Part shown: positions 45,987-63,117 of the stretch, in pieces
How positions within the stretch are numbered: the first letter of the stretch is position 1
How the letters are laid out: each line of letters opens with the position of its first letter
Source: a virus
IMG/VR virus record: IMGVR_UViG_3300047560_001714
Location: 1 to 64,000 of that record
DNA: 64,000 bases
Strand: one strand, 5' to 3'
Position numbers and translations under genes: made by a program
Notes under the pieces: model-generated
The model's input: only the letters and a program-made list of their open reading frames with translations
Told to the model about the DNA's origin: nothing
Databases searched by the model: none

Positions 45987-46069
45987 AATGATAAATAAAA
46001 TTAGTAAACGCCGATTGGGTTTACAAAACTGGCATAGTGCCAAACAACTCGCTTAATAGGAGAATTACA

Positions 46070-47980
46070 ATGAGTAAAATTATAGGTATTGACTTAGGTA
46101 CAACAAATTCGTGTGTTGCCATTTTAGAAAATGGTGTTTCAAAAGTTATTGAAAATTCTGAAGGCACGAGAACAACCCCCTCAATCATTGCATATACTGA
46201 CAATGAAATCTTAGTTGGTGCTGCGGCGAAACGCCAAGCAGTTACTAACCCAAAAAATACAATTTATGCTGCAAAACGCTTAATTGGACGTAAGTTCGAA
46301 GAAGATGCAGTTCAAAAAGACATCTCACTTATGCCATATGCAATCGTCAAAGCCGACAACGGTGACGCTTGGATTGAAGCAAATGGTGAAAAACTTGCAC
46401 CCCCACAAATTTCCGCTGAAGTACTTCGTAAAATGAAAAAAACCGCTGAGGATTATCTTGGCACCGAGGTCACTCAAGCTGTTATTACTGTTCCTGCTTA
46501 CTTTAACGATTCACAACGCCAAGCAACAAAAGATGCTGGTCGTATCGCTGGATTAGAAGTATTACGTATTATCAATGAACCAACTGCGGCGGCATTGGCC
46601 TATGGTGTTGACAAAACTGATAATAAAGATCGTAAGATTGCGGTTTACGATTTGGGTGGTGGTACATTTGACATCTCAATCATTGAAATCGCTAACATCG
46701 ATGGTGAAAAACAAATCGAGGTATTATCAACAAACGGTGATACTTTCTTAGGTGGTGAGGATTTTGATCAAAGACTAATGGATTATTTGGTCGATGAATT
46801 CAAAAAAGACACCGCTGTCGATTTAAAAAATGATACGATGGCATTGCAACGATTAAAAGAGGCTGCTGAAAAAGCAAAAATCGAATTATCGTCATCAGAA
46901 CAAACTGATGTAAATTTACCATACATCACAGCAGATGCATCTGGTCCAAAACATCTAAACGTCAAAATCACTCGTGCTAAATTCGAAGCACTGGTTGAAG
47001 ATTTGATCGAACGTAGTATTACACCATGTAAAATCGCTATCAAAGATGCTAAAGTTAGTTTAAGTGATATCGATGAAGTTATTTTAGTCGGTGGTCAAAC
47101 TCGTATGCCAAAAGTACAAGCGGCGGTTGAAGCGTTGTTTGGAAAATCCCCACGTAAAGATGTTAATCCAGATGAAGCTGTCGCGGCTGGTGCAGCTGTA
47201 CAAGGTGCGGTATTAGCTGGCGATAAAACAGACGTGTTATTGTTAGACGTAACACCATTAAGTTTGGGTATTGAAACAATGGGCGGTGTATTCACCAAAT
47301 TGATTCAAAAAAATACCACTATCCCAACTAAAGCAAGTCAAACCTTCTCGACAGCCGATGATAATCAACCAGCGGTAACTATCAAAGTTGCGCAAGGTGA
47401 ACGTGAGTTATATCAATATAACAAACAGCTCGGTGAATTCAACCTTGACGGTATCAACCCAGCACCCCGTGGTGTACCACAAATTGAGGTAACGTTCGAT
47501 ATCGATGCAAATGGTATTATGCACATTTCAGCATCCGATAAAGCAACTGGAAAGAAAAACCATATTACTATTAAATCAGATTCTGGCTTATCAGAGGACG
47601 AAATTACACGTATGGTTAGAGATGCTGAGGAAAACGCGGAGGCTGATAAAAAAGCTAAAGAATTGATTGAAGCTCGCAACCAAACAGAAGCACAACTTCA
47701 TAGTATTCAAAAAGATTACAATGAAGTTAAAGATGAACTATCTGATGATGAAAAAGCGGCGATTGATGAAGCTATCACCAACGTGAATACTGCGGTAACT
47801 AGCGATGATATTGAGAAAATGAAAGAGTCAACATCAAAGCTAATGGAATCAGCAACCCCAGTTTTTGCTAAAAAGCAAGAAAAAGCCTCAGCACAAGAGC
47901 CAACATCATCCGATGAGGTTCCTATCCAAGCTGAGTTTACTGAGGTTGAAACCCCAAATTCTACTGAAGATAAAAAATAA
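46070..47980 (+). CDS. dnaK: Chaperone DnaK (Hsp70)
   Basis: [28 protein letters not shown] and [14 protein letters not shown]; start MSKIIG at 46070 after AGGAG. Confidence 0.97.
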
Positions 47981-48828: not shown

Positions 48829-49362
48829 ATGAGTTTAAAAGAAATCACAAAAGAATTGCACACAGAAGCCGAGAAATCGGCTTTTGCTAAACTATTGTTA
48901 AGTGGTAATATTACCAAAGAAAAGTATGTGCAATACTTAACAGAAATGCAACCAATTTATCAGTTGATTGAAAAACACGCATCCGCACAAGGGATATTAG
49001 ACACCTTGCCTGGTATTAAACGTGCTAATGCTATTTTAGAAGATATCAGAGAGCTGTCAGATGTTGTACCATCCTCTGTGTTAAAACCAACCGTTGATTA
49101 TCTTATATACTTAGATAAATTATGTGAGGACGTGGCGACTAAACACCTAATTAAAGCTCATCTATATGTCAGACATATGGGCGACTTATTTGGTGGTCAA
49201 TTCATTGCAAAAAAAGTTCCGGGTTCTGGTAAGTTTTACCAATTTGATAACCCAGATGAACTGAAAGTTGCCATTAGAGAGTTGCTCACAGATGATCTAG
49301 GGGATGAAGCGAAAGTTGCATTCCAATGGGCAATAAAAATTATGGATGCGCTCGGTGAGTAA
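48829..49362 (+). CDS. Heme oxygenase (biliverdin-producing, HemO/Ho1-like)
   Basis: LKEITKELHTEAE (proximal His) and AHLYVRHMGDLFGGQ distal-helix motif. Confidence 0.9.
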   Translation: MSLKEITKELHTEAEKSAFAKLLLSGNITKEKYVQYLTEMQPIYQLIEKHASAQGILDTLPGIKRANAILEDIRELSDVVPSSVLKPTVDYLIYLDKLCEDVATKHLIKAHLYVRHMGDLFGGQFIAKKVPGSGKFYQFDNPDELKVAIRELLTDDLGDEAKVAFQWAIKIMDALGE

Positions 49363-50032
49363 CGTTTGGGATACCTTAGTATCAATTCAAATACATTTTG
49401 AAAAAATGATTGGTACTAACGGTATAGAAATCAACGAAAAAGGCATGGATAGATTCAACCAACCTGGTTGGATTAACCGTGTCTGGACCAGTGAAGCATT
49501 TCGTAGAGCGCACATTGATGTTGTGGATGCTAGAGAGAGTAAAGGGTTGTGGATGATGCATTGTTGTATTTTTCCACACACTCATAATGCGGCACCAATA
49601 TTTGGGTTTGACGTTGTTGCAGGTCGAAATAAAATCACTGGCTGTTTTTATGATTTTAGCCCATCTGGTTCATCAAATCACGAAATGGCGGAATGGTTTG
49701 ATGAAAGTGTTAAAGATCTTGAGTGGAAAAAGACACGCGAATTACCACCTTGGGCTGAACGTATTTTTAGTCATAATATGATTGCGGCAAGTAATGTTCA
49801 ATCAGATGATGAATTAAAACAGATCCACGAAATGGCAACATCTGGTATTGATTTCTATCTACAACAAGTTGGTACGTATAACAATACCACAAAAGATGTT
49901 ACCGCGTTGCATAACTTTTATGCACAGAACCAAAAACAAAATCCACATACCCCAAAAGTTATGGCAGCACTTGGGTTAGATGAGGATGATGTTAAGGTGT
50001 TCATCAATGACTGTCTGTTCCCAGAACTCTAA
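49355..50032 (+). CDS. Ferredoxin-dependent bilin reductase (PcyA/PcyX family)
   Basis: FRRAHIDVVD, LWMMHCCIFP, PIFGFDVVAG, RELPPWA..IFS and QKQNPHT motifs; directly after heme oxygenase; start GTG 49355 or ATG 49346. Confidence 0.85.
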   Translation: MSNVWDTLVSIQIHFEKMIGTNGIEINEKGMDRFNQPGWINRVWTSEAFRRAHIDVVDARESKGLWMMHCCIFPHTHNAAPIFGFDVVAGRNKITGCFYDFSPSGSSNHEMAEWFDESVKDLEWKKTRELPPWAERIFSHNMIAASNVQSDDELKQIHEMATSGIDFYLQQVGTYNNTTKDVTALHNFYAQNQKQNPHTPKVMAALGLDEDDVKVFINDCLFPEL

Positions 50033-50054
50033 TTAACTACTAGTTTTATTATAT

Positions 50055-50088
50055 AAAGCTCCTTCTTAAATAATTAAGAAGGAGCTTT
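50055..50088 (+). promoter_or_regulatory. 15-bp perfect hairpin with late promoter TAAATA at its apex and the csgF Shine-Dalgarno in its 3' arm
   Basis: AAAGCTCCTTCTTAA-ATAA-TTAAGAAGGAGCTTT, then T-run and ATG 50093. Confidence 0.8.
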
Positions 50089-50092
50089 TTTT

Positions 50093-50572
50093 ATGACTAA
50101 AATTATAGGTTTATTACTTATACTTGTTTGTTCGCAAGCACTATCCGCCGAATTGGTACATCAATTTAATAGTCCATCATTTAGTGGTATTGGTTACAGT
50201 GCGCACGTACTTACTATAAACCAATTAGAAAATCAAGCGGCAGATAAAAATAAAGCATTAGCTGATTCTATAAAAGCAAAGGCGGAGGCGGCAGCATTGA
50301 ATACCCCCGAAGCTAAATTCTTGGCTAACTTAGAATCTAGAATATACTCACAACTCGCAAAACAATTAACTGATACTATGTTTAGCGAGGGAAATACTTG
50401 TAATATCCCAGGAACAGTTTGTGGCTCAATACCAGATTTGGGCGGAAACCATGTTACATGGAGTTTGGGCGCAGGGACTGATCAAGGAATGATAATCATT
50501 GATATTGTCAATAACTCTAACCCAGCGCAAACAACGTCGATGAAGGTACCATCCGGTTCATTTTACTTTTAA
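50093..50572 (+). CDS. csgF: Curli assembly protein CsgF-like
   Basis: Signal peptide; AELVHQFNSPSFSGIG and FLANLESRIYSQLAKQL. Confidence 0.8.
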   Translation: MTKIIGLLLILVCSQALSAELVHQFNSPSFSGIGYSAHVLTINQLENQAADKNKALADSIKAKAEAAALNTPEAKFLANLESRIYSQLAKQLTDTMFSEGNTCNIPGTVCGSIPDLGGNHVTWSLGAGTDQGMIIIDIVNNSNPAQTTSMKVPSGSFYF

Positions 50573-50574
50573 CT

Positions 50575-51405
50575 ATGAAAAAAATTATACTATTATTCGT
50601 TATATTAATATTACAAGGGTGTGCAACAACAAGTGAATTGCATAAATTAATTACTGGCGATCAATTCGATGATCCAGTGATTGAAAAGCAATCTTATCTT
50701 ATCAAAGACGAAAGTTGGATTGCACCACCAACAAATGGGGCAATTCCAATTGCAGTGTATGGGTTTGTGGATAAAACTGGGCAACGTAAAGCTGTCCCTA
50801 ATATCGCATCCTTAAGTTCGGCTGTTACACAAGGTGCAGAAAGTTATTTGATTAAGTCGTTACAAGACGTGGGTGAATCAAAATGGTTCACTGTGGTTGA
50901 ACGAGTTGGTCTGGATAATTTAATTAAAGAACGACAAATGATTCGTCAGACTAGAGAACAATTCCAAGGCCGTGATGCACAACAATTACCAGCAATGACA
51001 TTTGCGGGAATAATTGCCGAAGGTGCTATCGTCGGTTATGATTCTAACACAACCACTGGTGGTGCTGGCGTCAGATTATTTGGAATCGGTGGTGAAACTC
51101 AGTATCAAAGCGACACAGTCACTGTTAGTTTAAGAACAGTATCAGTTACGTCTGGTGAAATATTAACATCAGTGTTAGTAACAAAAACAGTATTGAGTTA
51201 CGTGGATAAAGCTGGTGTATTAAAATTTGCTGCATCAGGTACATCAGCAATAGAGGCCGAGGTCGGTGGAAGTATAAATGAAAGTATAAACAGAGCAACC
51301 AATAAAGCGATCCAAGCTGCAGTACTCGATACAATTAAAGAAGGGGCGCGTAAAGGTCACTGGGCAATTCAATCTGTTCCAAATCCTTACGTATTAAACC
51401 ATTAA
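50575..51405 (+). CDS. csgG: Curli secretion channel CsgG/HfaB-like lipoprotein
   Basis: Lipobox LQGC; IAVYGFVDKTGQRK, SSAVTQGA, WFTVVERVGLDNLIKERQMIR and GAIVGYDSN. Confidence 0.9.
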   Translation: MKKIILLFVILILQGCATTSELHKLITGDQFDDPVIEKQSYLIKDESWIAPPTNGAIPIAVYGFVDKTGQRKAVPNIASLSSAVTQGAESYLIKSLQDVGESKWFTVVERVGLDNLIKERQMIRQTREQFQGRDAQQLPAMTFAGIIAEGAIVGYDSNTTTGGAGVRLFGIGGETQYQSDTVTVSLRTVSVTSGEILTSVLVTKTVLSYVDKAGVLKFAASGTSAIEAEVGGSINESINRATNKAIQAAVLDTIKEGARKGHWAIQSVPNPYVLNH

Positions 51406-51441
51406 GGAGCATTGGCAAATAATATTGTTCAATGATAATAA

Positions 51442-52221
51442 ATGAAAACATTAACATTATTTCTACTTTCGATTTTATTTTTTTCTAACGCGTATGGCGC
51501 GGCAGCTGGTGAAAATAAAGTATATATAGAGCAAGCTGGTAACACCAATACCATTACAATAGACCAAATAGGTGGTGGTAATATGGTCGGAGGTACAACC
51601 TCAACAACAATAGCCGTGAATGGCGCAGGGGTGACAACTATCACACCTGCTAGTCCTAGTTCATCTAACTACGCGTTGATAACTGGGAATACAAATAGTT
51701 TAACATTAAACCACTTAGGTGATACTAACTGGGCTCAATATGTCATTACTGGGAGTAATAATATCTACTCTAATAAAATTACTGGGAATAGTAATATATC
51801 AATTCTAACAATCGGAAAAGTATTACCAACTCCTATGGCAAATCTTAGAAATAATATAAATGAAGAAATAATTGGTAATACTAATTATACAATCCAATCT
51901 ATTTCCAATGATGATATTATTAGTAACTTAAAAATAACCGGCGATCAAAACCAAGTTACCACAGACTTAGGTTCTAGTTTTGGAAAAGTAAATACAGTTA
52001 TCACAGGCGGAAATAATATTCTATTCAATACTCAAGCTGGTGTTGCTACTGGTCATGATCTTACTCAAGATATTCTAGGCAGTTTTAACTCAATATCAAC
52101 TCAACAGTTGGGTGTAAATGATTCCATAATAGATATTAAAGTTAATGGCGATCATAATACGATTACAGTTCATTCAAGTGATAGCACTATTGCGTCACCA
52201 TTAATTGCAACACCACGATAA
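51442..52221 (+). CDS. Curlin-like repeat secreted protein
   Basis: Signal peptide; VYIEQAGNTNTITIDQIG and repeated x-x-G-x-x-N strands; N/T/G/I-rich. Confidence 0.7.
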   Translation: MKTLTLFLLSILFFSNAYGAAAGENKVYIEQAGNTNTITIDQIGGGNMVGGTTSTTIAVNGAGVTTITPASPSSSNYALITGNTNSLTLNHLGDTNWAQYVITGSNNIYSNKITGNSNISILTIGKVLPTPMANLRNNINEEIIGNTNYTIQSISNDDIISNLKITGDQNQVTTDLGSSFGKVNTVITGGNNILFNTQAGVATGHDLTQDILGSFNSISTQQLGVNDSIIDIKVNGDHNTITVHSSDSTIASPLIATPR

Positions 52222-53306
52222 TGTACATTATAGCCTTATTATTTTTGTTTATTTCTAATTCATACGCTGGTATTGGTACCGTTGTTGATGCAACTGGTAC
52301 CAATTGCACAATAGAGCGTAGTTCTAAAAAAATCTCTGGTGAAAAAGGGGCGATAGTTGAAAGTATGGATACCTATATTACTGGTAGTTGTGTAAGTAAT
52401 ATAACTTTTGACGATGGTACCAAAGTTAAAGTAAACGAAAATAGTAAGCTATTCATAGATGAATTTGTTTACGATCCAAAACAATCAGATGCAGGTAAAC
52501 TAGCTATCAAAGTCGGAATGGGTACTGTTCGTTATGCATCTGGTCAAATAGCTAAAAACAATCCACAAAAAGTTGATATAAAAACACCGACGGCAGCAGT
52601 TGCAGTGCGTGGTACTGACTTTACTATGACTGTCGATGAGATTGGTCAAAGCTTAGTGGTACTTGTTCCAAGTTGTAAAGATGAAAAAGATGTAAAAAAG
52701 TATGAACTACAAGAAAACACTTGCCAAGTTGGTAGAATAATAGTTTCAAATGGTATGGGTTCTGTTGAACTATCCGAGGCATACCAAGCTACTTTTGTTA
52801 ACAGCAATGTGGTGCAACCAACACCACCAGTTGTAATCAATATGACTGAGGGGCAAATTGGGAATAATCTTATCATATTGAAACCAGCGGAAATTCAAAA
52901 AGCGGTTAAAGAAAATACCAGAACCCAAAAAGACTCCGAGAATGATGCAGCTGAGGATGAAACCGCCAGACGCTCAACTAGTATGGCACTGAAATCCGCC
53001 GAACTAAATGATGCAAAAATATCCTCATCTAAAAAACTACAAATTGATAAATCTTGTAACCCATCCTCATCAGTATGTGTGGCTTGGGAAAATAAAGATG
53101 CCGAGGGGCAAGCAAAAGGAATTGGGGTAGCGTATAGATTCCAACCGGATGAACATTATACTGAAATAAAGACACAAGGTTATACCTCTAATACCTCAAT
53201 ATCAATAACACAAAACGATGAATTCGCATCGACCGTCATAGGGGATGGTGCCGCCGGTGGAAACATCATTACTATCAAACAACAAAATGGAGTGTTAAAT
53301 AAATGA
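52221..53306 (+). CDS. FecR-domain secreted protein
   Basis: ITFDDGTKVKVNENSKLFIDEFVYDP, GTVRYASG and IKTPTAAVAVRGTDF motifs. Confidence 0.85.
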   Translation: MYIIALLFLFISNSYAGIGTVVDATGTNCTIERSSKKISGEKGAIVESMDTYITGSCVSNITFDDGTKVKVNENSKLFIDEFVYDPKQSDAGKLAIKVGMGTVRYASGQIAKNNPQKVDIKTPTAAVAVRGTDFTMTVDEIGQSLVVLVPSCKDEKDVKKYELQENTCQVGRIIVSNGMGSVELSEAYQATFVNSNVVQPTPPVVINMTEGQIGNNLIILKPAEIQKAVKENTRTQKDSENDAAEDETARRSTSMALKSAELNDAKISSSKKLQIDKSCNPSSSVCVAWENKDAEGQAKGIGVAYRFQPDEHYTEIKTQGYTSNTSISITQNDEFASTVIGDGAAGGNIITIKQQNGVLNK

Positions 53307-53764
53307 GACATTTGTTACTTTTTCTTTTATGCTCTATATGTTACGCTGATAATTTAACATCAGTTAACCAAATTGGTAATAGCAACGATATTGAAATTAA
53401 CCAAATAGGTGATGTAAATAATATATCGTATTCTGGTAATGGTTCCTTTAATACCGTCAATGTTGAACAAATCGGTAATCAAAAAACTGCAAACTTAACT
53501 GTTATTAATAATAACAATATCATAGACGTATCACAAAGTGGTACTGGGATTGATTCGGCAACAATAGCGGTTAGTGGTGGACTTAAAAATATATCAGTAA
53601 CACAAGAAGGTTCCGGGTCACATTCAGCAACCATAAACTTATCTGGAACACCTATTACATTTGATCTAACTCAATCTGGAGTTAATAATCAAACATTTTC
53701 AATCACGGCAAATTGTGCCCTAGTGGGCGGTTGCGCCGCAGTTCAAGTCATTCAAAATCAATAA
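53303..53764 (+). CDS. Curlin-like (CsgA/CsgB-type) repeat protein
   Basis: Signal peptide; repeats NQIGNSN / NQIGDVN / EQIGNQK / SQSGTG / TQEGSGS / TQSGVN. Confidence 0.75.
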   Translation: MRHLLLFLLCSICYADNLTSVNQIGNSNDIEINQIGDVNNISYSGNGSFNTVNVEQIGNQKTANLTVINNNNIIDVSQSGTGIDSATIAVSGGLKNISVTQEGSGSHSATINLSGTPITFDLTQSGVNNQTFSITANCALVGGCAAVQVIQNQ

Positions 53765-53802
53765 TCGATAAATACAATAGCTAGTTCAGCAAGGAGGCAG
53801 CT

Positions 53803-53877
53803 ATGAAGTGGACCACACCAACATTCGTTGATATTCGATTAGGGTTTGAAGTAACACTGTATATCTATAACCGCTAA
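53803..53877 (+). CDS. pqqA: Pyrroloquinoline quinone precursor peptide PqqA (24 aa; not in ORF track)
   Basis: Hand translation MKWTTPTFVDIRLGFEVTLYIYNR carries the W.TP...D.R.GFEVT.Y..NR family pattern with the ExxxY core; AGGAGG RBS; TAAATA 53769-53774; hairpin 53884-53903 downstream. Confidence 0.93.
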   Translation: MKWTTPTFVDIRLGFEVTLYIYNR

Positions 53878-53920
53878 TCTTTTGTGCTGGATGTTTCTAG
53901 CACCAATAATAAGGATAGCA

Positions 53921-54793
53921 ATGTCAGTTATAATACTAACAAAACCCGATAAAAACGATTTTGAAACTAACAAACTTATAGAGGAATTTGAAAATCGGCA
54001 AATCCAAGTTCGGGTTTGCCAATTCAAACACTTTGACGTAATAATTAATAAAGGTATATTTTACAAAGGCAAACATATTGAACCACCAAAAGTTGTATTA
54101 GTAAGACTAGGCGCAGGAATCACTCGTAAAGAATTAGCAGTAATACGGTACTTTGAGTTATCTGGTATTAAATGTTTCAATTCTAGACATAGTATCAATT
54201 TAGTTCAAGATAAATTACATACTAGTGAAATCTTAGCACAATCAGGTATCGCAGTACCCACAACAATGGTTGTCAAATTTCCAGTAAAACATAACTTAGT
54301 TCAAACTCACATAGGATTTCCTTGTATTGTAAAAGTTGTGGTTGGGAGTTTTGGCGAAGGTGTATATATGTGCCAGACAGAACAAGAATATAATAGAATT
54401 ATAGAATTTGTGGATAGTCTTAGTACAGATAAAACTCTGATCGTTCAAGAATACTTAGGTGATAACCCAGGTACAGATTTACGAGTGTTCGTTATTGGGG
54501 GTAAGGTTATCGGTGCAATGAAAAGAACCGCACCAGTCGGTGATTTCCGGGCGAATATCACAATAGGCGGTTCTGGTGAATCATACCCAGTAAATAAAGA
54601 AATCGAAGATATTGTTCTTAATACCACTAAAATCCTTGGGTTAGATATTGCTGGCATTGACCTATTATTTGATAACCGTGGTTTCCGTGTTTGCGAAGCC
54701 AATTCGAATCCAGGATTCTCTGGGTTTAACAAATACTGCGATGTTAATATCCAAGAACACATCGTTGATTTTATACAAGGACACTTACCGTGA
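53921..54793 (+). CDS. RimK-family ATP-grasp ligase
   Basis: DKLHTSEIL, PCIVKVVVGSFGEGVY, IVQEYL, DLRVFVIGG, DFRANITIGG, AGIDLL and VCEANSNPGF; start MSVII at 53921 after AAGGA. Confidence 0.9.
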   Translation: MSVIILTKPDKNDFETNKLIEEFENRQIQVRVCQFKHFDVIINKGIFYKGKHIEPPKVVLVRLGAGITRKELAVIRYFELSGIKCFNSRHSINLVQDKLHTSEILAQSGIAVPTTMVVKFPVKHNLVQTHIGFPCIVKVVVGSFGEGVYMCQTEQEYNRIIEFVDSLSTDKTLIVQEYLGDNPGTDLRVFVIGGKVIGAMKRTAPVGDFRANITIGGSGESYPVNKEIEDIVLNTTKILGLDIAGIDLLFDNRGFRVCEANSNPGFSGFNKYCDVNIQEHIVDFIQGHLP

Positions 54794-54956: not shown

Positions 54957-56303
54957 ATGAGAATTAAAGAATTTCTATTTGAATCAGCGGGTGGTAATAT
55001 GTTAATTAAAAATGGATTAACATACTTACCATTGGCATCTTGGTTAAAACAAGAACTCGGTGATTCACCTGATACCGAAATGGACGAAGCATTTGGGAAG
55101 TTAAACGCACCTGGTAAAGAGGTATCAGATACCAGTATTGGTGATTTCTTAAAAACGATTAAAGATGAACAATTATTAAAAATCACCAAAGAAAAATTAA
55201 ACCCAAATAATGCAAAATTCAAAAATAATCCCAAGAAATATAACGCAGCAGTCGAGAGAAAACAAGCGGCTATCGCTGAATTAGAAAAACGTGATATACA
55301 ACCAACTAATCGGTCGCCAGAACAATATAAAAAAGATTTTATTACAAAACCACATGTTCACGCAACCCCAATTAAATTCATAGATAATGGTACAGAGGTT
55401 GACGTTGAACATATTCGTAATATCATTCTTCAACGCCCAGCTGAAATACTTGGTTCAAATGCAAAAATGGACCATAGTGGCGGCGTTGACCAAGTATACT
55501 TTAAAGTCGGATTACCCGCACTTAGAGGAATGGCAATCGATGAGGAAACTGGTAAATTCATTTACGTAAACACTTGCCCAGGTGCAGGAAGTTGTAAAGT
55601 TGATTGTTTTGCTAAGAAAGGAAACTATGTGGTATTCCCAGGGGTTTGGCAGCATTCGACACAAGTGTTGAATTATTTAATAAATGATCCAGATGGATTC
55701 ATGCAACAATTACACAATGAGATATTAAAAAAAGTTAAGTTATATGAACCACAAAATATTAAAGTTGGTATAAGATGGCATGATTCCGGTGATTTCTTTA
55801 GTCCAGAATACGCTGATATGGCATACAAGTTAGCCAGAAGTCTTCCAAACGTGGATTTCTTTGCTTATACTAAATTTGCATCAGCAATGACTGCCGATAA
55901 ACCTGATAACTTTATTACTAACTGGTCAGAAGGTGCAACACCGGCACAAGATAAAGCGGTTGCATCGCACGCGGCGGAATTGGGTGATAAGTTTAAGCGT
56001 TCAATCATTGTCCCAAAAGAGGCATTTAAACACTTAGTACACAAAGTTACTCCAGTACATGCTAAGGGCAAAAAGAATGAGGTCCTTCAATCAGAGTGGA
56101 ACTCGCCCGAAGCTGAACAAGAATTTAAACAGTGGATGGCACACGCTTACAATTTACCAATTGAATCCATTATTTCATATAATGATTTGGTAAAAATGCC
56201 AAAAACTAATGAACCTAAATGGAACGTAATCGTTAAAACTGGCGACGGTGACATCAGTGCTAATCGCAGAGATGTAATCGGTACTTACCTATTTGCACAT
56301 TAA
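54957..56303 (+). CDS. GP88-like protein with Cys cluster (possible Fe-S/radical-SAM-like)
   Basis: TCPGAGSCKVDCFA and IRWHDSGDF, FFAYTK motifs; MRIKEF start. Confidence 0.65.
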   Translation: MRIKEFLFESAGGNMLIKNGLTYLPLASWLKQELGDSPDTEMDEAFGKLNAPGKEVSDTSIGDFLKTIKDEQLLKITKEKLNPNNAKFKNNPKKYNAAVERKQAAIAELEKRDIQPTNRSPEQYKKDFITKPHVHATPIKFIDNGTEVDVEHIRNIILQRPAEILGSNAKMDHSGGVDQVYFKVGLPALRGMAIDEETGKFIYVNTCPGAGSCKVDCFAKKGNYVVFPGVWQHSTQVLNYLINDPDGFMQQLHNEILKKVKLYEPQNIKVGIRWHDSGDFFSPEYADMAYKLARSLPNVDFFAYTKFASAMTADKPDNFITNWSEGATPAQDKAVASHAAELGDKFKRSIIVPKEAFKHLVHKVTPVHAKGKKNEVLQSEWNSPEAEQEFKQWMAHAYNLPIESIISYNDLVKMPKTNEPKWNVIVKTGDGDISANRRDVIGTYLFAH

Positions 56304-56317
56304 TTTAAAATAAAGAT

Positions 56318-57319
56318 ATGATTAAGAAAATACTACTCAGCCATTGGACAGCACTAATAACACTAACCTTAGTTGTGCTAGTTCGCGTAATAGATCCATC
56401 ATTTGTTGAAAGTATCCGTTTAAGATACTTCGATACATTGATAACAGCTAAAGCACCCACAGAAAACAATATTATTTCTGTTAATATAGACGAGGATGCT
56501 CTTGATAAGTATGGCCAATGGCCATTTAGTCGAGATATATACGGTTCTATAATCGAGGATTTATACCAGCGAAATGCTGGGTTAGTGGTATTCAATGTCT
56601 TAATGCCAGAAAAGGATAGACTAGGTGGTGATGCGGCATTGGCAAAAACAATCGCTAATAATCCCGTTATCATTCCAAGCGTTGCATCTATAAAATCAAA
56701 AAATACACCAAAAAACCCAGGGGCATCTGTCATTGGTGCGGATTATGCTGATATGATAGTCCAGTTTCCAGGTATAATTTCATCGATTGATATTATCAGT
56801 GAACATGCGGCTGGTGTTGGTATCATCAATACATTACCGGAAATAGATGGCGTCAATAGACGTTTACCTATGTTAGTAACCGCCAAACATACGTTGTATC
56901 CATCACTAAGTATGGAGGTTCTTCGTGTGGTGGCCGGTGATCCATCGTTTCAAGTCAAACTGAATAACTTTGGTGTTGAAAAAATGCGTATACCAGCGTT
57001 TGGTGTAATATCAACCGATTCGTTAAGTCGTGTGTGGATTGATTGGAGTCAACATAATCAAAGTATTAGTTTATCACAGCTACCAAATGATTTTGGTGGT
57101 GCGATAGTAATAGTCGGACCAACCGCCGCTGGTATTAGTAACCCAATCTCTACTCCAAAAGGTCCAATCTTCCCAAATGATATTCAAGCGGCGATGATTG
57201 GTACTATGATGAATAAAGTAACCATCAACAGACCGGACTATTCGGACGGTGCTGAAATTTTAGTTGGTGCCGTTTGTGGTATCTTGTTAATTATAGGTTC
57301 GTTATGGCGGAAGAGATAG
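56318..57319 (+). CDS. CHASE2 sensor domain + first TM; N-terminal half of a split adenylate cyclase
   Basis: IDEDALDKYGQWPFSR, VVFNVLMPEKDRLGGD, PEIDGVNRRLP and IVIVGPTAAG; ends after a single TM helix. Confidence 0.88.
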   Translation: MIKKILLSHWTALITLTLVVLVRVIDPSFVESIRLRYFDTLITAKAPTENNIISVNIDEDALDKYGQWPFSRDIYGSIIEDLYQRNAGLVVFNVLMPEKDRLGGDAALAKTIANNPVIIPSVASIKSKNTPKNPGASVIGADYADMIVQFPGIISSIDIISEHAAGVGIINTLPEIDGVNRRLPMLVTAKHTLYPSLSMEVLRVVAGDPSFQVKLNNFGVEKMRIPAFGVISTDSLSRVWIDWSQHNQSISLSQLPNDFGGAIVIVGPTAAGISNPISTPKGPIFPNDIQAAMIGTMMNKVTINRPDYSDGAEILVGAVCGILLIIGSLWRKR

Positions 57320-57349
57320 TAAATCCACTAACATTTGATAAATAATATT

Positions 57350-57922
57350 ATGAGAATATATATTATTACAAATTTATCAAACAATCATCGATATGTCGGA
57401 ATGACTACTAAAACATTAGCAGAACGGTGGGCGCAACATAAAGCGGATGCTAAGAGAAATAAACCTTGGATTTTACATAAAGCATTGCGAAAATATGGGT
57501 ATGAGAATTTCAAAATAGAATTATTAGAGGAATGTAATGCTAATTCACTGACAGAATTAGGACTTATTGAAACTAATTACATAACAACACTAAAACCAGA
57601 ATATAATATGACATCTGGTGGTGAAGGGCATAGTGGTATTTCAGCAAAAGGTGAAAAGAACGGGATGTTTAATAAAAAGCACAGTGAAGAAACAAAAGAA
57701 AAAATAAGTATCAACCGAAAAGGAAAAGGAGGACAAGTTGGGGAATTAAATCCTCGATATGGTAAACCTGGTACATTTCTCGGATGTCAGCATTCCGATG
57801 AAACTAAATCAAAAATGCGAAAACCTAAATCAATACCTAGACAACGTGTTTCTTGTGAATTCTGTGGTAGAGAAATAGCCATAAATGCAATCGGGCAGCA
57901 TAAGAGAGCACACCATGAATAA
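57350..57922 (+). mobile_element. Free-standing GIY-YIG homing endonuclease with NUMOD3 repeats, inserted in the cyclase gene
   Basis: IYIITN...RYVGMT and E...I motifs; HSEETKEKIS and HSDETKSKM repeats; own TAAATA at 57339-57344. Confidence 0.88.
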
Positions 57923-58982
57923 ACATCTAAGTTATATATTACCACTATTTTTTATTATTATAATATCATTTTTCAGTTTTCATGAATACCAAAATGAACA
58001 CATTCTGTTCGATGTAACATTTCCAGTTATAACAATTGTTCTAGTTACACTACATATTAACACTGTTCGATTTATTACAGAATTAACCCTTAAATTACAA
58101 ATAAAAAAACAATTTGGCACATACCTAAGTGCAGCATTAGTTGAAAAATTGCAGAAAAACCCAGATTTACTCCATTTAGGGGGCGACAGTAGAGAATTAT
58201 CCATTCTCTTTTCCGACGTAAGAGGATTCACATCTATCTCTGAACACTATGGCGAAGATGTCCAAGGGCTTACAAAGATTATGAATAGATATATGACAGC
58301 AATGACAGCAGAAATATTAACAAATGATGGCACACTTGACAAATATATTGGTGATGCTAAAATGGCTTTCTGGAATGCTCCACTTGATGATCCACATCAT
58401 GCAAAAAATGCTGTAAAAACCGCATTACAAATGTTAAAGAACTTGGAGAAGTTTAATAATGAAATCGAAAAAGAAGGAGTTCCAGCTTTCGGGATGGGCC
58501 TTGGTGTTAACACTGCCACTGTGGTTGTTGGCAATATGGGTAGTGATCAGCGTTTCGATTATACCTGCCTTGGTGATGGGGTTAACCTCGCGTCACGGCT
58601 TGAAGGACAATCAAAATCGTATGGGGTTAAAATCGTTCTGGGTCCGAAAACAGCCGACTATGTCAAAGACGAATACTTAGTTCTTGAACTAGACCTACTT
58701 GCAGTTAAAGGTAAAAAACAAGGTGTCACAATCTTTACGGTCTTAGGTGAGAATGATCCCAAATATACAACGCATGATATAAAAATGCATAATAGAATGC
58801 TTGAGTTATATCGCAAACAACGTTGGGATGAAGTTATTCATGCTTGCAATCCATTAAAAAAAGCTTTCAGTGGCGAAATGAAAAAGTATTATGAAATGAT
58901 GCAAGAACGTGCTACTGAATATAGCCAAACTAATAAATTTATTGAAAACTGGGATGGCGTGTACGTTGCCACAAGCAAATAG
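57915..58982 (+). CDS. Two TM helices + class III adenylate/guanylate cyclase; C-terminal half of the split gene
   Basis: ILFSDVRGFT, LDKYIGDA.MAFWNAP, GMGLGVNT...VGNMGSDQRFDYTCLGDGVNLASRLEG; restart MNKHL overlaps the endonuclease stop. Confidence 0.9.
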   Translation: MNKHLSYILPLFFIIIISFFSFHEYQNEHILFDVTFPVITIVLVTLHINTVRFITELTLKLQIKKQFGTYLSAALVEKLQKNPDLLHLGGDSRELSILFSDVRGFTSISEHYGEDVQGLTKIMNRYMTAMTAEILTNDGTLDKYIGDAKMAFWNAPLDDPHHAKNAVKTALQMLKNLEKFNNEIEKEGVPAFGMGLGVNTATVVVGNMGSDQRFDYTCLGDGVNLASRLEGQSKSYGVKIVLGPKTADYVKDEYLVLELDLLAVKGKKQGVTIFTVLGENDPKYTTHDIKMHNRMLELYRKQRWDEVIHACNPLKKAFSGEMKKYYEMMQERATEYSQTNKFIENWDGVYVATSK

Positions 58983-62311: not shown

Positions 62312-62710
62312 AACTTAGCAACAATAAGCATATTAGATTTATTAGTGTGCTTATTATTGTTGTAATTCCTTCAAAGTGAAGGCATTCAAGACGGGGGTTC
62401 GACTCCCCCCAGTTCCACCATAAAACACATTAGAGGTATCAGAGTGGGGCCATAGCCATAAACTTCCTGCCCCCCCCTAAAAGGGAAGTGCTAGTGTGTT
62501 TTATAATGGGGCTGTCATGGTTTCGATTGGGTGAGATAATGGAGACGGCAACAGGTGAGGTGACTGTCCTAAACAGCGCAAAACAAGTAATCGCAAACGA
62601 TTCAAATTTCGAATTCTATACATTAGATAACATCGATTTAGATGTTATGGCTGCTTAATAACCAGCCGATTCCGGGGCATGTATGCCCTGTTACCTAAAA
62701 TACAACTAAG
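62312..62710 (+). ncRNA. ssrA: Circularly permuted (two-piece) tmRNA
   Basis: Acceptor piece ends GGGGGTTCGACTCCCCCCAGTTCCACCA (to 62420); hairpin-closed spacer 62421-62507; coding piece starts GGGGCTG at 62508 with G3.U70; tag ANDSNFEFYTLDNIDLDVMAA* at 62593-62658; outer ends approximate. Confidence 0.92.
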
Positions 62711-62733
62711 CTGCCTTCGGGCAGCTTTTTTTA
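62709..62733 (+). terminator. Rho-independent terminator after ssrA
   Basis: AGCTGCC-ttcg-GGCAGCT followed by a T-run. Confidence 0.88.
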
Positions 62734-62748
62734 CATCAAATATCATAG

Positions 62749-63117
62749 GTGTCAGACAATATGAACAGAAAAATTACACCAGAAACATACAGTTATATCA
62801 ATTCAACATTAGAAAAGTTGAGATATGAAATAATGTATATAGATCACGGTGCAACACGCATAGCATTAATGGAACACCGTGACGCTATGAAACGTATTAT
62901 TGACGGGCATCCGTTTAAGACGATGTCCCCTCCTCTTCCACCACACAAACCGCAATATCGCAATCAAAACGGAATGACTGGATTTAATCCTCCACCTCCA
63001 TTAAAATCACTATATGAACTTCCTGATCCACCTGCAGGATTAGAGAGTTGTGATGCTTTTTGTAATGAACCTGTATTTCCACGTTGGATGTACGCACTAA
63101 TGGGGAGATTAAAATGA
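62749..63117 (+). CDS. Pro-rich hypothetical protein
   Basis: 122-aa ORF; start may be ATG 62761. Confidence 0.55.
   Translation: MSDNMNRKITPETYSYINSTLEKLRYEIMYIDHGATRIALMEHRDAMKRIIDGHPFKTMSPPLPPHKPQYRNQNGMTGFNPPPPLKSLYELPDPPAGLESCDAFCNEPVFPRWMYALMGRLK

What the first reader, a model, noticed from the sequence alone, without database searches (positions are those of the whole stretch)
53761..53905. Phage-encoded PqqA: a hidden 24-aa PQQ precursor gene with its own late promoter and strong RBS
Seen: a 75-nt ORF below the ORF-track cutoff reads MKWTTPTFVDIRLGFEVTLYIYNR. It has AGGAGG, TAAATA and a downstream hairpin, so it looks like a stand-alone expressed gene. Known: PqqA is the ribosomal precursor whose Glu and Tyr (ExxxY) are cross-linked by PqqE/PqqD and excised to make PQQ, one peptide consumed per cofactor. 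PQQ serves methanol, alcohol and glucose dehydrogenases. No pqqB-E are in this window. Inference: the phage supplies only the stoichiometric substrate to the host pathway, to boost periplasmic oxidation and energy supply in a PQQ-using, possibly methylotrophic, host. I do not recall pqqA as a characterised phage auxiliary metabolic gene, and standard gene callers would miss it.
Basis: partly seen in the sequence, partly recalled or inferred. Interest (0 to 1): 0.88.

Follow-up and report, generated by a model that had tools for sequence, protein, structure and literature searches.

The report
Phage-borne PQQ precursor gene pqqA
A giant phage that most likely infects methane-eating bacteria carries an intact 24-codon copy of pqqA, the peptide bacteria use up to make the cofactor PQQ; the gene is real and under selection, but viral pqqA has been reported before.

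Summary
Window 53803-53877 (+) encodes a 24-aa peptide that scores twice the curated cut-offs of both PqqA models and keeps the Glu16/Tyr20 cross-link pair. An ATAAATA late-promoter-like box, an AAGGAGG ribosome-binding site and a stable 3' hairpin flank it.

The DNA is phage: the window opens a 188-kb IMG/VR record collinear with a complete 372-kb phage genome. Neither genome holds pqqB, C, D or E, nor a PQQ-dependent dehydrogenase.

The record also carries pmoC, 43 kb downstream of pqqA.

A diverged relative keeps the same curlin-pqqA-RimK order, with synonymous change far above non-synonymous. The complete relative has pqqA at another locus, so the RimK neighbour is probably incidental.

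The function, resupplying the consumed substrate to host PqqBCDE, is inferred and untested.

It is not new in kind. Viral PqqA was reported by Coutinho et al. 2020 and in a 2026 AEM paper, and it sits in a supplementary table of the pmoC-phage paper. This scan has noted phage pqqA before on other DNA (169 notes, at least 114 genomes). The carriage of pqqA with pmoC in one giant-phage lineage is not discussed in the papers I read.

The parts
53768..53774 (+). ATAAATA box, a T4-type late-promoter-like motif 28 nt upstream of the pqqA ATG
   Evidence: Sequence. In the whole record, 19 of 65 ATAAATA occurrences end 10-60 nt upstream of a >=100-aa ORF start. The 20 same-composition permutations give 2-6%. 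The box ATAAATACAA is conserved in relative L251 (alignment A1). Promoter function is inferred.
53791..53797 (+). Shine-Dalgarno AAGGAGG, 5 nt before the start codon
   Evidence: Sequence. Every one of about 130 viral pqqA copies examined has a purine-rich GGAG or AGGA box at this position.
53803..53877 (+). pqqA: 24 codons plus stop, with the Glu16-x-x-x-Tyr20 cross-link motif
   Evidence: PF08042 41.4 bits and TIGR02107 45.2 bits. Against syntenic relative L251, pS = 0.68 and pN = 0.16, and the core DIRLGFEVTLY is unchanged despite 5 synonymous changes.
53884..53903 (+). 8-bp stem, 4-nt loop hairpin 7 nt after the pqqA stop; no U-run
   Evidence: -11.7 kcal/mol, z = -4.3. L251 has a hairpin of different sequence at the same place: -12.5 kcal/mol, z = -2.6. 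It is not a canonical terminator. Its role, as a 3' stabiliser or a weak terminator, is inferred.
53921..54793 (+). RimK-family ATP-grasp ligase gene: a neighbour, probably not a functional partner of pqqA
   Evidence: TIGR00768 230.6 bits and PF08443 159 bits. Homologues occur in T4-like cyanophages and Pelagibacter phage Mosig, which gave no PqqA match. It lies 37 kb from pqqA in the complete relative G407. It is absent from the 120 other viral pqqA loci.
53303..53764 (+). Upstream curlin-repeat gene, the last gene of the csgF-csgG-FecR-curlin block; context only
   Evidence: PF07012 and CsgA/CsgB models. The block is conserved in G407 and L251.

Best explanation
This is a functional, phage-encoded pqqA. 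The phage transcribes it from its own late-type promoter and translates it from a strong ribosome-binding site. The peptide is then handed to the host's PqqD/PqqE/PqqB/PqqC enzymes, which cross-link Glu16 to Tyr20 and excise PQQ. PqqA is the only pathway component consumed, one peptide per cofactor. It is also a short peptide made from a short mRNA, so it is the component most likely to run out once the phage shuts down host transcription. The phage copy would keep PQQ flowing to the host's periplasmic methanol dehydrogenase. The same genome carries pmoC, a subunit of particulate methane monooxygenase, so the phage appears to prop up the first two steps of methane oxidation, methane to methanol and methanol to formaldehyde. 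Shown here: gene identity, phage context, orphan status, purifying selection, recurrence in the lineage and in other C1-host phages, and presence of the full pathway in host-like genomes. Inferred: late transcription, processing to PQQ, and any benefit to the phage. The confidence of 0.65 is for the functional reading; that this is a genuine, selected pqqA gene on a phage is about 0.95.
For: Identity: both PqqA models score at twice their cut-offs. W3, P6, R12, G14, F15, E16, T18 and Y20 are invariant across the 24-codon viral copies.

Phage context: baseplate hub, tail fibres and RNR are present. The record is an IMG/VR virus record. It is collinear with G407, a 372,173-bp genome with direct terminal repeats, over 116 ORFs at median 57% aa identity.

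Orphan status: no pqqB, C, D or E in G000. None in complete G407 or in G404, which is 96% complete. The PqqC search was validated on genomes that have the gene. No PQQ-dependent dehydrogenase is found in these phages.

Selection: against L251, pS = 0.68 and pN = 0.16. Across 106 unique 23-codon viral genes, pN/pS = 0.19.

Recurrence: at least 120 IMG/VR contigs carry an intact copy with an SD box, and none has pqqB-E nearby. All cultured Methylophilales phages returned by tblastn carry it. Within this lineage it sits at two different loci, in G000/G402 versus G407/G409.

Host: pmoC is at G000:C1:96972-97688 with 402 bits. It is 87% identical to the PmoC of gammaproteobacterial genome G341. G341 also has adjacent pqqA and pqqC and two methanol/ethanol-type PQQ dehydrogenases.

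Expression signals.
Against: There is no expression or biochemical data. The record covers only about half of the phage genome, so the absence of pqqB-E rests partly on relatives that share about 57% aa identity. The host is not identified directly. The closest cellular PqqA (20/24) is from Ca. Spongiihabitans (Arenicellales), in whose genome the phage PmoC query found no match; a 24-aa peptide cannot place a host. pqqA is not a general partner of pmoC: only 5 of 44 pmoC-bearing viral records of at least 17 kb have it, and four complete pmoC phages of about 170 kb lack it. It is not established that PqqA supply limits PQQ synthesis in infected cells. Late timing leaves less time for new cofactor to matter.
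Confidence: 0.65

Rival explanations
1. The peptide is a decoy or regulator. It occupies host PqqD/PqqE, or a PqqA-sensing step, to throttle or retime PQQ synthesis rather than feed it.
For: A stand-alone leader-like peptide could in principle titrate PqqD. Nothing here measures the direction of the effect.
Against: The cross-link residues Glu16 and Tyr20 and the whole core are invariant under saturated synonymous change. A binding decoy would not need that. Co-carriage with pmoC points to support of C1 oxidation, not its shutdown.
Confidence: 0.06
2. The peptide is a substrate for phage enzymes and yields something other than PQQ. The candidates are the adjacent RimK-type ATP-grasp ligase and the record's radical SAM operon.
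For: pqqA lies 43 nt upstream of RimK, and this order is kept in relative L251/G402.
Against: None of the 120 other viral pqqA loci has RimK. RimK occurs in cyanophages that gave no PqqA match. No PqqD/RRE partner is found in the phage. The peptide ends in Asn-Arg, not the Glu-rich tail that RimK extends on ribosomal protein S6 (textbook knowledge).
Confidence: 0.05
3. It is a neutral passenger: a recently captured scrap of host DNA with no role for the phage.
For: Orphan pqqA copies are common in C1 bacteria, with up to 8 matches per genome, so capture is easy.
Against: Strong purifying selection acts between phage copies. The copy has its own conserved promoter box, SD and hairpin. It is retained in four members of the lineage at two loci. 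It recurs in unrelated phage types of C1 hosts.
Confidence: 0.04
4. It is a genuine PQQ precursor, but the pay-off is not methanol oxidation. PQQ would serve other quinoproteins, such as glucose, alcohol or aldehyde dehydrogenases, or a redox-protective role, possibly in a non-methanotroph host.
For: The closest cellular peptide (20/24) is from a genome in which the phage PmoC query found no match. Similar peptide types occur in Halomonas, Vibrio and Shewanella. A 2026 paper files viral pqqA under phosphate solubilisation.
Against: The phage carries pmoC that is 87% identical to that of a gammaproteobacterial genome with methanol dehydrogenases. Four of the ten genomes with the most similar PqqA are among the 7 of 401 that carry a close PmoC: p = 7e-6, or 0.007 among PqqA carriers.
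Confidence: 0.12

Closest known systems
Virus-encoded PqqA of Lake Baikal methylotroph phages (population VP_266; Coutinho et al. 2020, Microbiome 8:163, PMC7678222)
   Same: A stand-alone PqqA gene on a viral contig, proposed as an auxiliary metabolic gene that supports PQQ-dependent methanol oxidation.
   Different: The Baikal viruses were assigned to methylotrophs (Methylophilaceae-like), and some carry methanol dehydrogenase itself. This phage is a jumbo pmoC phage of about 370 kb. Its peptide is a different type, 58% identical to the Methylophilales-phage copies, and no dehydrogenase gene was found.
pmoC-phages (Chen et al. 2020, Nat Microbiol 5:1504, PMC7674155)
   Same: A large phage with a pmoC homologue (PF04896, 402 bits). 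The predicted hosts are methanotrophs, and the phages are related to T4-like cyanophages.
   Different: The paper's main text never mentions PQQ or pqqA. PqqA appears only as family fam2590, present in one genome, in a supplementary table. Here pqqA is shown in four members of one lineage of about 370 kb, at two loci. I did not test whether pmoA and pmoB are absent from the record.
Orphan pqqA copies in chromosomes of C1-utilising Gammaproteobacteria
   Same: Same length, same motif and the same stand-alone arrangement. Many sampled genomes hold 2-8 dispersed copies.
   Different: The cellular copies sit in genomes that also encode pqqB-E. The phage copy depends on enzymes encoded elsewhere.
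Unannotated pqqA of cultured Methylophilales phages (Melnitz, Venkman, MEP301, MEP401/402, P19250A)
   Same: An intact pqqA of 23-24 codons with an SD box and no pqqB-E nearby, missed or called on the wrong strand.
   Different: Those peptides are the Methylophilaceae type (ATEMRFGFEVTMYVMNK), and most of those phages are small. The Melnitz and MEP papers do not mention the gene.
Cyanophage psbA (D1), as a functional analogy only
   Same: The phage re-supplies the fastest-consumed component of a host energy pathway and leaves the rest to the host. This rests on established knowledge, not on a test here.
   Different: D1 is a structural subunit. PqqA is a consumable biosynthetic substrate.

Membership tests
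PqqA (PF08042 / TIGR02107) | Match to the family profile above the curated cut-off | tested here: met
   PF08042 41.4 bits (cut-off 21.1) and TIGR02107 45.2 bits (cut-off 20), covering the full model.
PqqA (PF08042 / TIGR02107) | Small ribosomal peptide of about 20-40 aa with Glu-x-x-x-Tyr, the two residues that become PQQ | tested here: met
   The peptide is 24 aa with E16-V-T-L-Y20. E and Y are invariant in all viral copies examined.
PqqA (PF08042 / TIGR02107) | Encoded with pqqB, C, D and E (the usual operon context) | tested here: not met
   No pqqB-E in the 188-kb record or in complete relative G407. This feature is not strictly defining, because orphan copies are common in bacteria.
PqqA (PF08042 / TIGR02107) | Bound by PqqD, cross-linked by PqqE and converted to PQQ | not testable with these tools
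   This needs complementation or in vitro assays.
Phage auxiliary metabolic gene | Located on a bona fide phage genome, not on host contamination or a prophage flank | tested here: met
   Structural and replication genes lie on both sides. The record is collinear with a DTR-bounded 372-kb phage genome.
Phage auxiliary metabolic gene | Maintained by selection in phages | tested here: met
   pN/pS is 0.19-0.32 across viral copies, and pS = 0.68 versus pN = 0.16 against the syntenic relative.
Phage auxiliary metabolic gene | The host has the rest of the pathway | tested here: inconclusive
   The host is not identified. The genome with the closest PmoC (G341, 87%) has pqqA, pqqC and methanol-type PQQ dehydrogenases.
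pmoC-phages (Chen et al. 2020) | Phage genome carrying a pmoC homologue | tested here: met
   PF04896 402 bits at G000:C1:96972-97688. Copies 92-96% identical occur in other large IMG/VR phage contigs.
pmoC-phages (Chen et al. 2020) | pmoC stands alone, without pmoA or pmoB | not tested
   I did not search the record for pmoA or pmoB.
RimK-type ligase with a dedicated peptide substrate | Conserved pairing of the ligase gene with the peptide gene | tested here: not met
   The two are adjacent only in G000 and G402. They are 37 kb apart in G407. RimK is absent from the 120 other viral pqqA loci, and the cyanophages that carry RimK gave no PqqA match.

The most novel reading that the evidence does not exclude
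One lineage of methanotroph phages of about 370 kb carries both pmoC and pqqA, and it acquired or relocated pqqA to two different loci. This would mean phages re-supply the quickly exhausted components of two successive steps of methane oxidation, a pMMO subunit and the consumable precursor of the methanol dehydrogenase cofactor. In that case PqqA supply would be a real bottleneck in infected C1 bacteria. The pmoC-pqqA combination is not discussed in the papers I could read.
Probability: 0.4. Interest if true: 0.6.

Novelty: new member of a known kind. Interest (0 to 1): 0.4.

Why it matters
Phage pqqA is a clean example of a virus carrying only the consumable substrate of a cofactor pathway. 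It is systematically missed by gene callers, so viral influence on methanol and methane oxidation is under-counted in metagenome surveys. In this phage it accompanies pmoC, which suggests coordinated support of the first two steps of methane oxidation in lake methanotrophs, organisms that limit methane emission. A simple complementation experiment would turn a repeatedly inferred role into a demonstrated one.

Tried and rejected
- The 24-aa peptide is too short for the search for homologous proteins and the search for related loci, so I used degenerate DNA patterns instead.
- A single-protein scan with RimK found no relative in IMG/VR. The syntenic relative came from the peptide pattern instead.
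- The Gp23 capsid Pfam model found nothing in the half-genome record.
- The 647-aa ORF I chose as a phage marker turned out to be DnaK, so it said nothing about phage taxonomy.
- The GenBank phage collection holds no PmoC homologue, so the published pmoC-phage genomes could not be checked directly.
- Rfam found nothing at 53300-54300. No canonical intrinsic terminator was found.
- I considered host DNA or prophage-flank contamination and rejected it.
- I considered the 'Acinetobacter phage MD-2021a' hits as phage examples and rejected them. They are bacterial contigs with pqqABCDE.
- Host calling from the peptide alone was abandoned as unreliable. The best match, Ca. Spongiihabitans at 20/24, comes from a genome in which the phage PmoC query found no match.
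- G handles carry no organism names, so G341 could only be described by its gene content.

Full report
**Observation.** Window 53803-53877 (+) is an ATG-to-TAA ORF of 24 codons. Its peptide matches Pfam PF08042 at 41.4 bits (gathering cut-off 21.1). It matches NCBIfam TIGR02107 at 45.2 bits (cut-off 20) over the whole model. A six-frame search of the whole record finds this one copy only.
- It carries the Glu16-x-x-x-Tyr20 pair that becomes PQQ.
- AAGGAGG lies at 53791-53797, 5 nt before the ATG.
- ATAAATA lies at 53768-53774, 28 nt before the ATG and directly after the stop of the upstream curlin-like gene.
- An 8-bp hairpin lies at 53884-53903, 7 nt after the stop codon. It folds at -11.7 kcal/mol, z = -4.3, with 0 of 200 shuffles as stable.
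- The hairpin has no U-run, and the terminator scan reports nothing.
- Rfam finds no known RNA here.

**Is it a phage?** Yes.
- The window is the first 64 kb of an IMG/VR virus record of 187,935 bp, which CheckV rates 51% complete.
- It encodes a baseplate hub, collagen-like tail fibres and ribonucleotide reductase.
- It also holds a heme oxygenase/bilin reductase pair, a csgF-csgG-curlin block and a CHASE2 cyclase.
- The record is collinear with IMGVR_UViG_3300043410_001892 (G407). G407 is 372,173 bp, has direct terminal repeats and is rated 100% complete. 116 ORFs match at a median 57% amino-acid identity.
- 188 kb is about half of 372 kb, which fits the CheckV figure.

**Is it an orphan?** Profile searches find no pqqB, pqqC, pqqD or pqqE in the record. 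The only PqqE-model hit is a generic radical SAM match of 26 bits against a cut-off of 381.
- None is found in complete G407 or in four further pqqA-bearing phage records.
- None is found in G404, a 356-kb pqqA-bearing phage rated 96% complete.
- The PqqC search does find the gene at 350-370 bits in cellular genomes that carry pqqA, so these negatives are meaningful.
- No methanol/ethanol-type PQQ dehydrogenase is encoded in these phages.
- Any use of the peptide must therefore go through host enzymes.

**Is it under selection?** A second pattern scan found L251/G402 (IMGVR_UViG_3300044568_003994, 41 kb). It keeps the same gene order: FecR (58% identity), curlin (40%), pqqA (19/24) and RimK (64%).
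- The DNA alignment shows that the ATAAATACAA box, the SD-ATG arrangement and the RimK start are all conserved.
- Nine codons differ synonymously and five differ in amino acid.
- The core DIRLGFEVTLY is unchanged despite five synonymous substitutions.
- By Nei-Gojobori counting, pS = 0.68 and pN = 0.16.
- L251 has a hairpin of different sequence at the same position: -12.5 kcal/mol, z = -2.6.
- Across 106 unique 23-codon viral pqqA genes, pN/pS is 0.19. Across 19 24-codon genes it is 0.32.
- In the 24-codon set, W3, P6, R12, G14, F15, E16, T18 and Y20 are invariant.

**Expression signals.** In the whole record, 19 of 65 ATAAATA occurrences end 10-60 nt upstream of a >=100-aa ORF start.
- All 20 permutations of the same seven letters give only 2-6%, and ATAAATA is also the rarest of them.
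- The motif therefore behaves like the T4-type late promoter; that comparison is established knowledge about T4-like phages.
- In G407, pqqA is the last gene after a PAAR-like gene and is followed by a canonical GC-stem plus T-run terminator.
- Late expression is thus plausible in both phages, but it is inferred.

**How widespread is it?**
- tblastn against GenBank phages returned 12 records.
- Two records named 'Acinetobacter phage MD-2021a' matched. The one I fetched is a bacterial contig with pqqABCDE, and I read the second the same way.
- The other ten are four Melnitz isolates, Venkman, MEP301, MEP401, MEP402, P19250A and one spring-water podovirus.
- Each copy I extracted has an intact 23-24-codon pqqA with an SD box.
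- None of the ten annotates it on the correct strand.
- All 120 are intact, and none has pqqB-E or RimK in the fetched flanks.
- Most are the Methylophilaceae type. The window's peptide is a different type, 58% identical to the Melnitz copy.

**Host.** The record carries a pmoC homologue at G000:C1:96972-97688, 43 kb beyond pqqA, scoring 402 bits on PF04896. I looked for it after an earlier scan note reported pqqA beside pmoC in another phage.
- The phage PmoC is 87% identical to that of G341, a 5.1-Mb genome in the class-level sample drawn around a gammaproteobacterial reference.
- G341 also has adjacent pqqA and pqqC and two methanol/ethanol-type PQQ dehydrogenases (762 and 681 bits).
- In a 401-genome sample of that class, 7 genomes have PmoC at least 66% identical to the phage's, and all 7 have a PqqA match.
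- Four of those 7 are among the ten genomes with the most similar PqqA. The hypergeometric p is 7e-6, or 0.007 when conditioned on the 69 PqqA carriers.
- Three of the 7 (G040, G142, G309) are unpublished genomes, so the enrichment count rests partly on them. The G341 result does not.
- The closest cellular peptide overall (20/24) is from Ca. Spongiihabitans (Arenicellales), in whose genome the phage PmoC query found no match. The peptide alone cannot name the host.
- The best reading is a gammaproteobacterial methanotroph, as for the pmoC-phages of Chen et al. 2020 (PMC7674155).

**The RimK neighbour.** The gene 43 nt downstream is a RimK-family ATP-grasp ligase (TIGR00768, 230.6 bits).
- Homologues at about 40% identity occur in T4-like cyanophages (S-RIM8, S-RIM12, S-RIM32, S-CAM8), and at 31% in Pelagibacter phage Mosig. 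None of these gave a PqqA match.
- In G407, RimK lies between the bilin reductase gene and csgF, 37 kb from pqqA.
- I therefore treat the adjacency as lineage-specific and probably incidental.
- G407 gave no tblastn match to the G000 ORFs at about 105-115 kb, where an earlier scan note places a radical SAM operon. That operon is therefore not tied to pqqA either.

**Mechanism.** The phage supplies only the consumed substrate, and host PqqD/E/B/C turn it into PQQ for periplasmic methanol dehydrogenase. With pmoC in the same genome, the phage would support methane-to-methanol and methanol-to-formaldehyde oxidation. That PqqA becomes limiting after host shut-off is inference. No tool here can show processing or benefit.

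**What is known.**
- Coutinho et al. 2020 reported PqqA on a Lake Baikal methylotroph virus and proposed this same role.
- A 2026 AEM paper lists viral pqqA among phosphate-solubilisation genes.
- The main text of the pmoC-phage paper does not mention PQQ. Its supplementary protein-family table has PqqA (fam2590) in one genome.
- The Melnitz and MEP papers do not mention the gene.
- This scan has already noted phage pqqA on other DNA: 169 notes in at least 114 genomes, including one beside pmoC.

The finding is therefore a real new member of a known kind. Two points are modestly new. pqqA recurs at two loci within one pmoC jumbo-phage lineage. It is not a general partner of pmoC: 5 of 44 pmoC records of at least 17 kb have it, and four complete pmoC phages of about 170 kb lack it.

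Noticed in passing
outside the window: G000:C1:96972-97688 (locus L265:1501-2217): The same phage record carries a pmoC homologue (PF04896, 402 bits). It is 87% identical to that of a gammaproteobacterial genome that also has methanol dehydrogenases, and 92-96% identical to copies on other large IMG/VR phage contigs.
   Followed up: partly
window 56318-58982: The CHASE2 sensor and the adenylate/guanylate cyclase domain are separate genes here, with a GIY-YIG/NUMOD3 endonuclease gene between them. In complete relative G407 the homologous region is one uninterrupted 698-aa ORF without the endonuclease, so the split looks like a homing-endonuclease gene insertion.
   Followed up: partly
window 46037-47980: The phage encodes a full-length DnaK (Hsp70). 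It is 81% identical to the G407 copy and 65-72% identical to gammaproteobacterial DnaK found on mislabelled 'phage' records.
   Followed up: partly
window 48829-53764: Heme oxygenase plus a ferredoxin-dependent bilin reductase are followed by csgF, csgG, an unassigned gene, a FecR-domain gene and a curlin-repeat gene. The whole block is conserved in G407 at 34-76% identity.
   Followed up: partly
window 62328-62749: ARAGORN calls a permuted (two-piece) tmRNA with a 21-residue tag, as described for Melnitz and the pelagimyophages.
   Followed up: no
whole record G000 (window included): ATAAATA is both depleted overall and concentrated 10-60 nt upstream of ORF starts: 29% of occurrences, against 2-6% for same-composition permutations. 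This is a usable late-promoter marker for annotating this phage.
   Followed up: yes
L357-L375 (G407), pqqA at 321756-321818 (-): In the complete relative, pqqA sits at a different locus. It follows a PAAR-like gene and is followed by a canonical GC-stem plus T-run terminator. RimK is 37 kb away, between the bilin reductase gene and csgF.
   Followed up: yes
L004 (GenBank CAKLQF020000010.1) and CAKLQH020000055.1: In the record I fetched (CAKLQF020000010.1), labelled 'Acinetobacter phage MD-2021a', the DNA is bacterial chromosome with pqqABCDE, fur, ppk and similar genes. CAKLQH020000055.1 carries the same label and gave the same match but was not fetched. Such records contaminate phage database searches.
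   Followed up: partly
L003, L005-L009 (GenBank Melnitz, P19250A, MEP402, Venkman, MEP301, MW202481): Intact pqqA ORFs are unannotated in all of these records. In Melnitz-1 and MW202481 a spurious opposite-strand ORF is annotated over them.
   Followed up: yes
window 54957-56303: A GP88-family (PF17338) gene lies between RimK and the CHASE2 gene. It has no counterpart in G407, so the pqqA-RimK-GP88 stretch looks like an insertion between the curlin gene and the CHASE2 gene.
   Followed up: no
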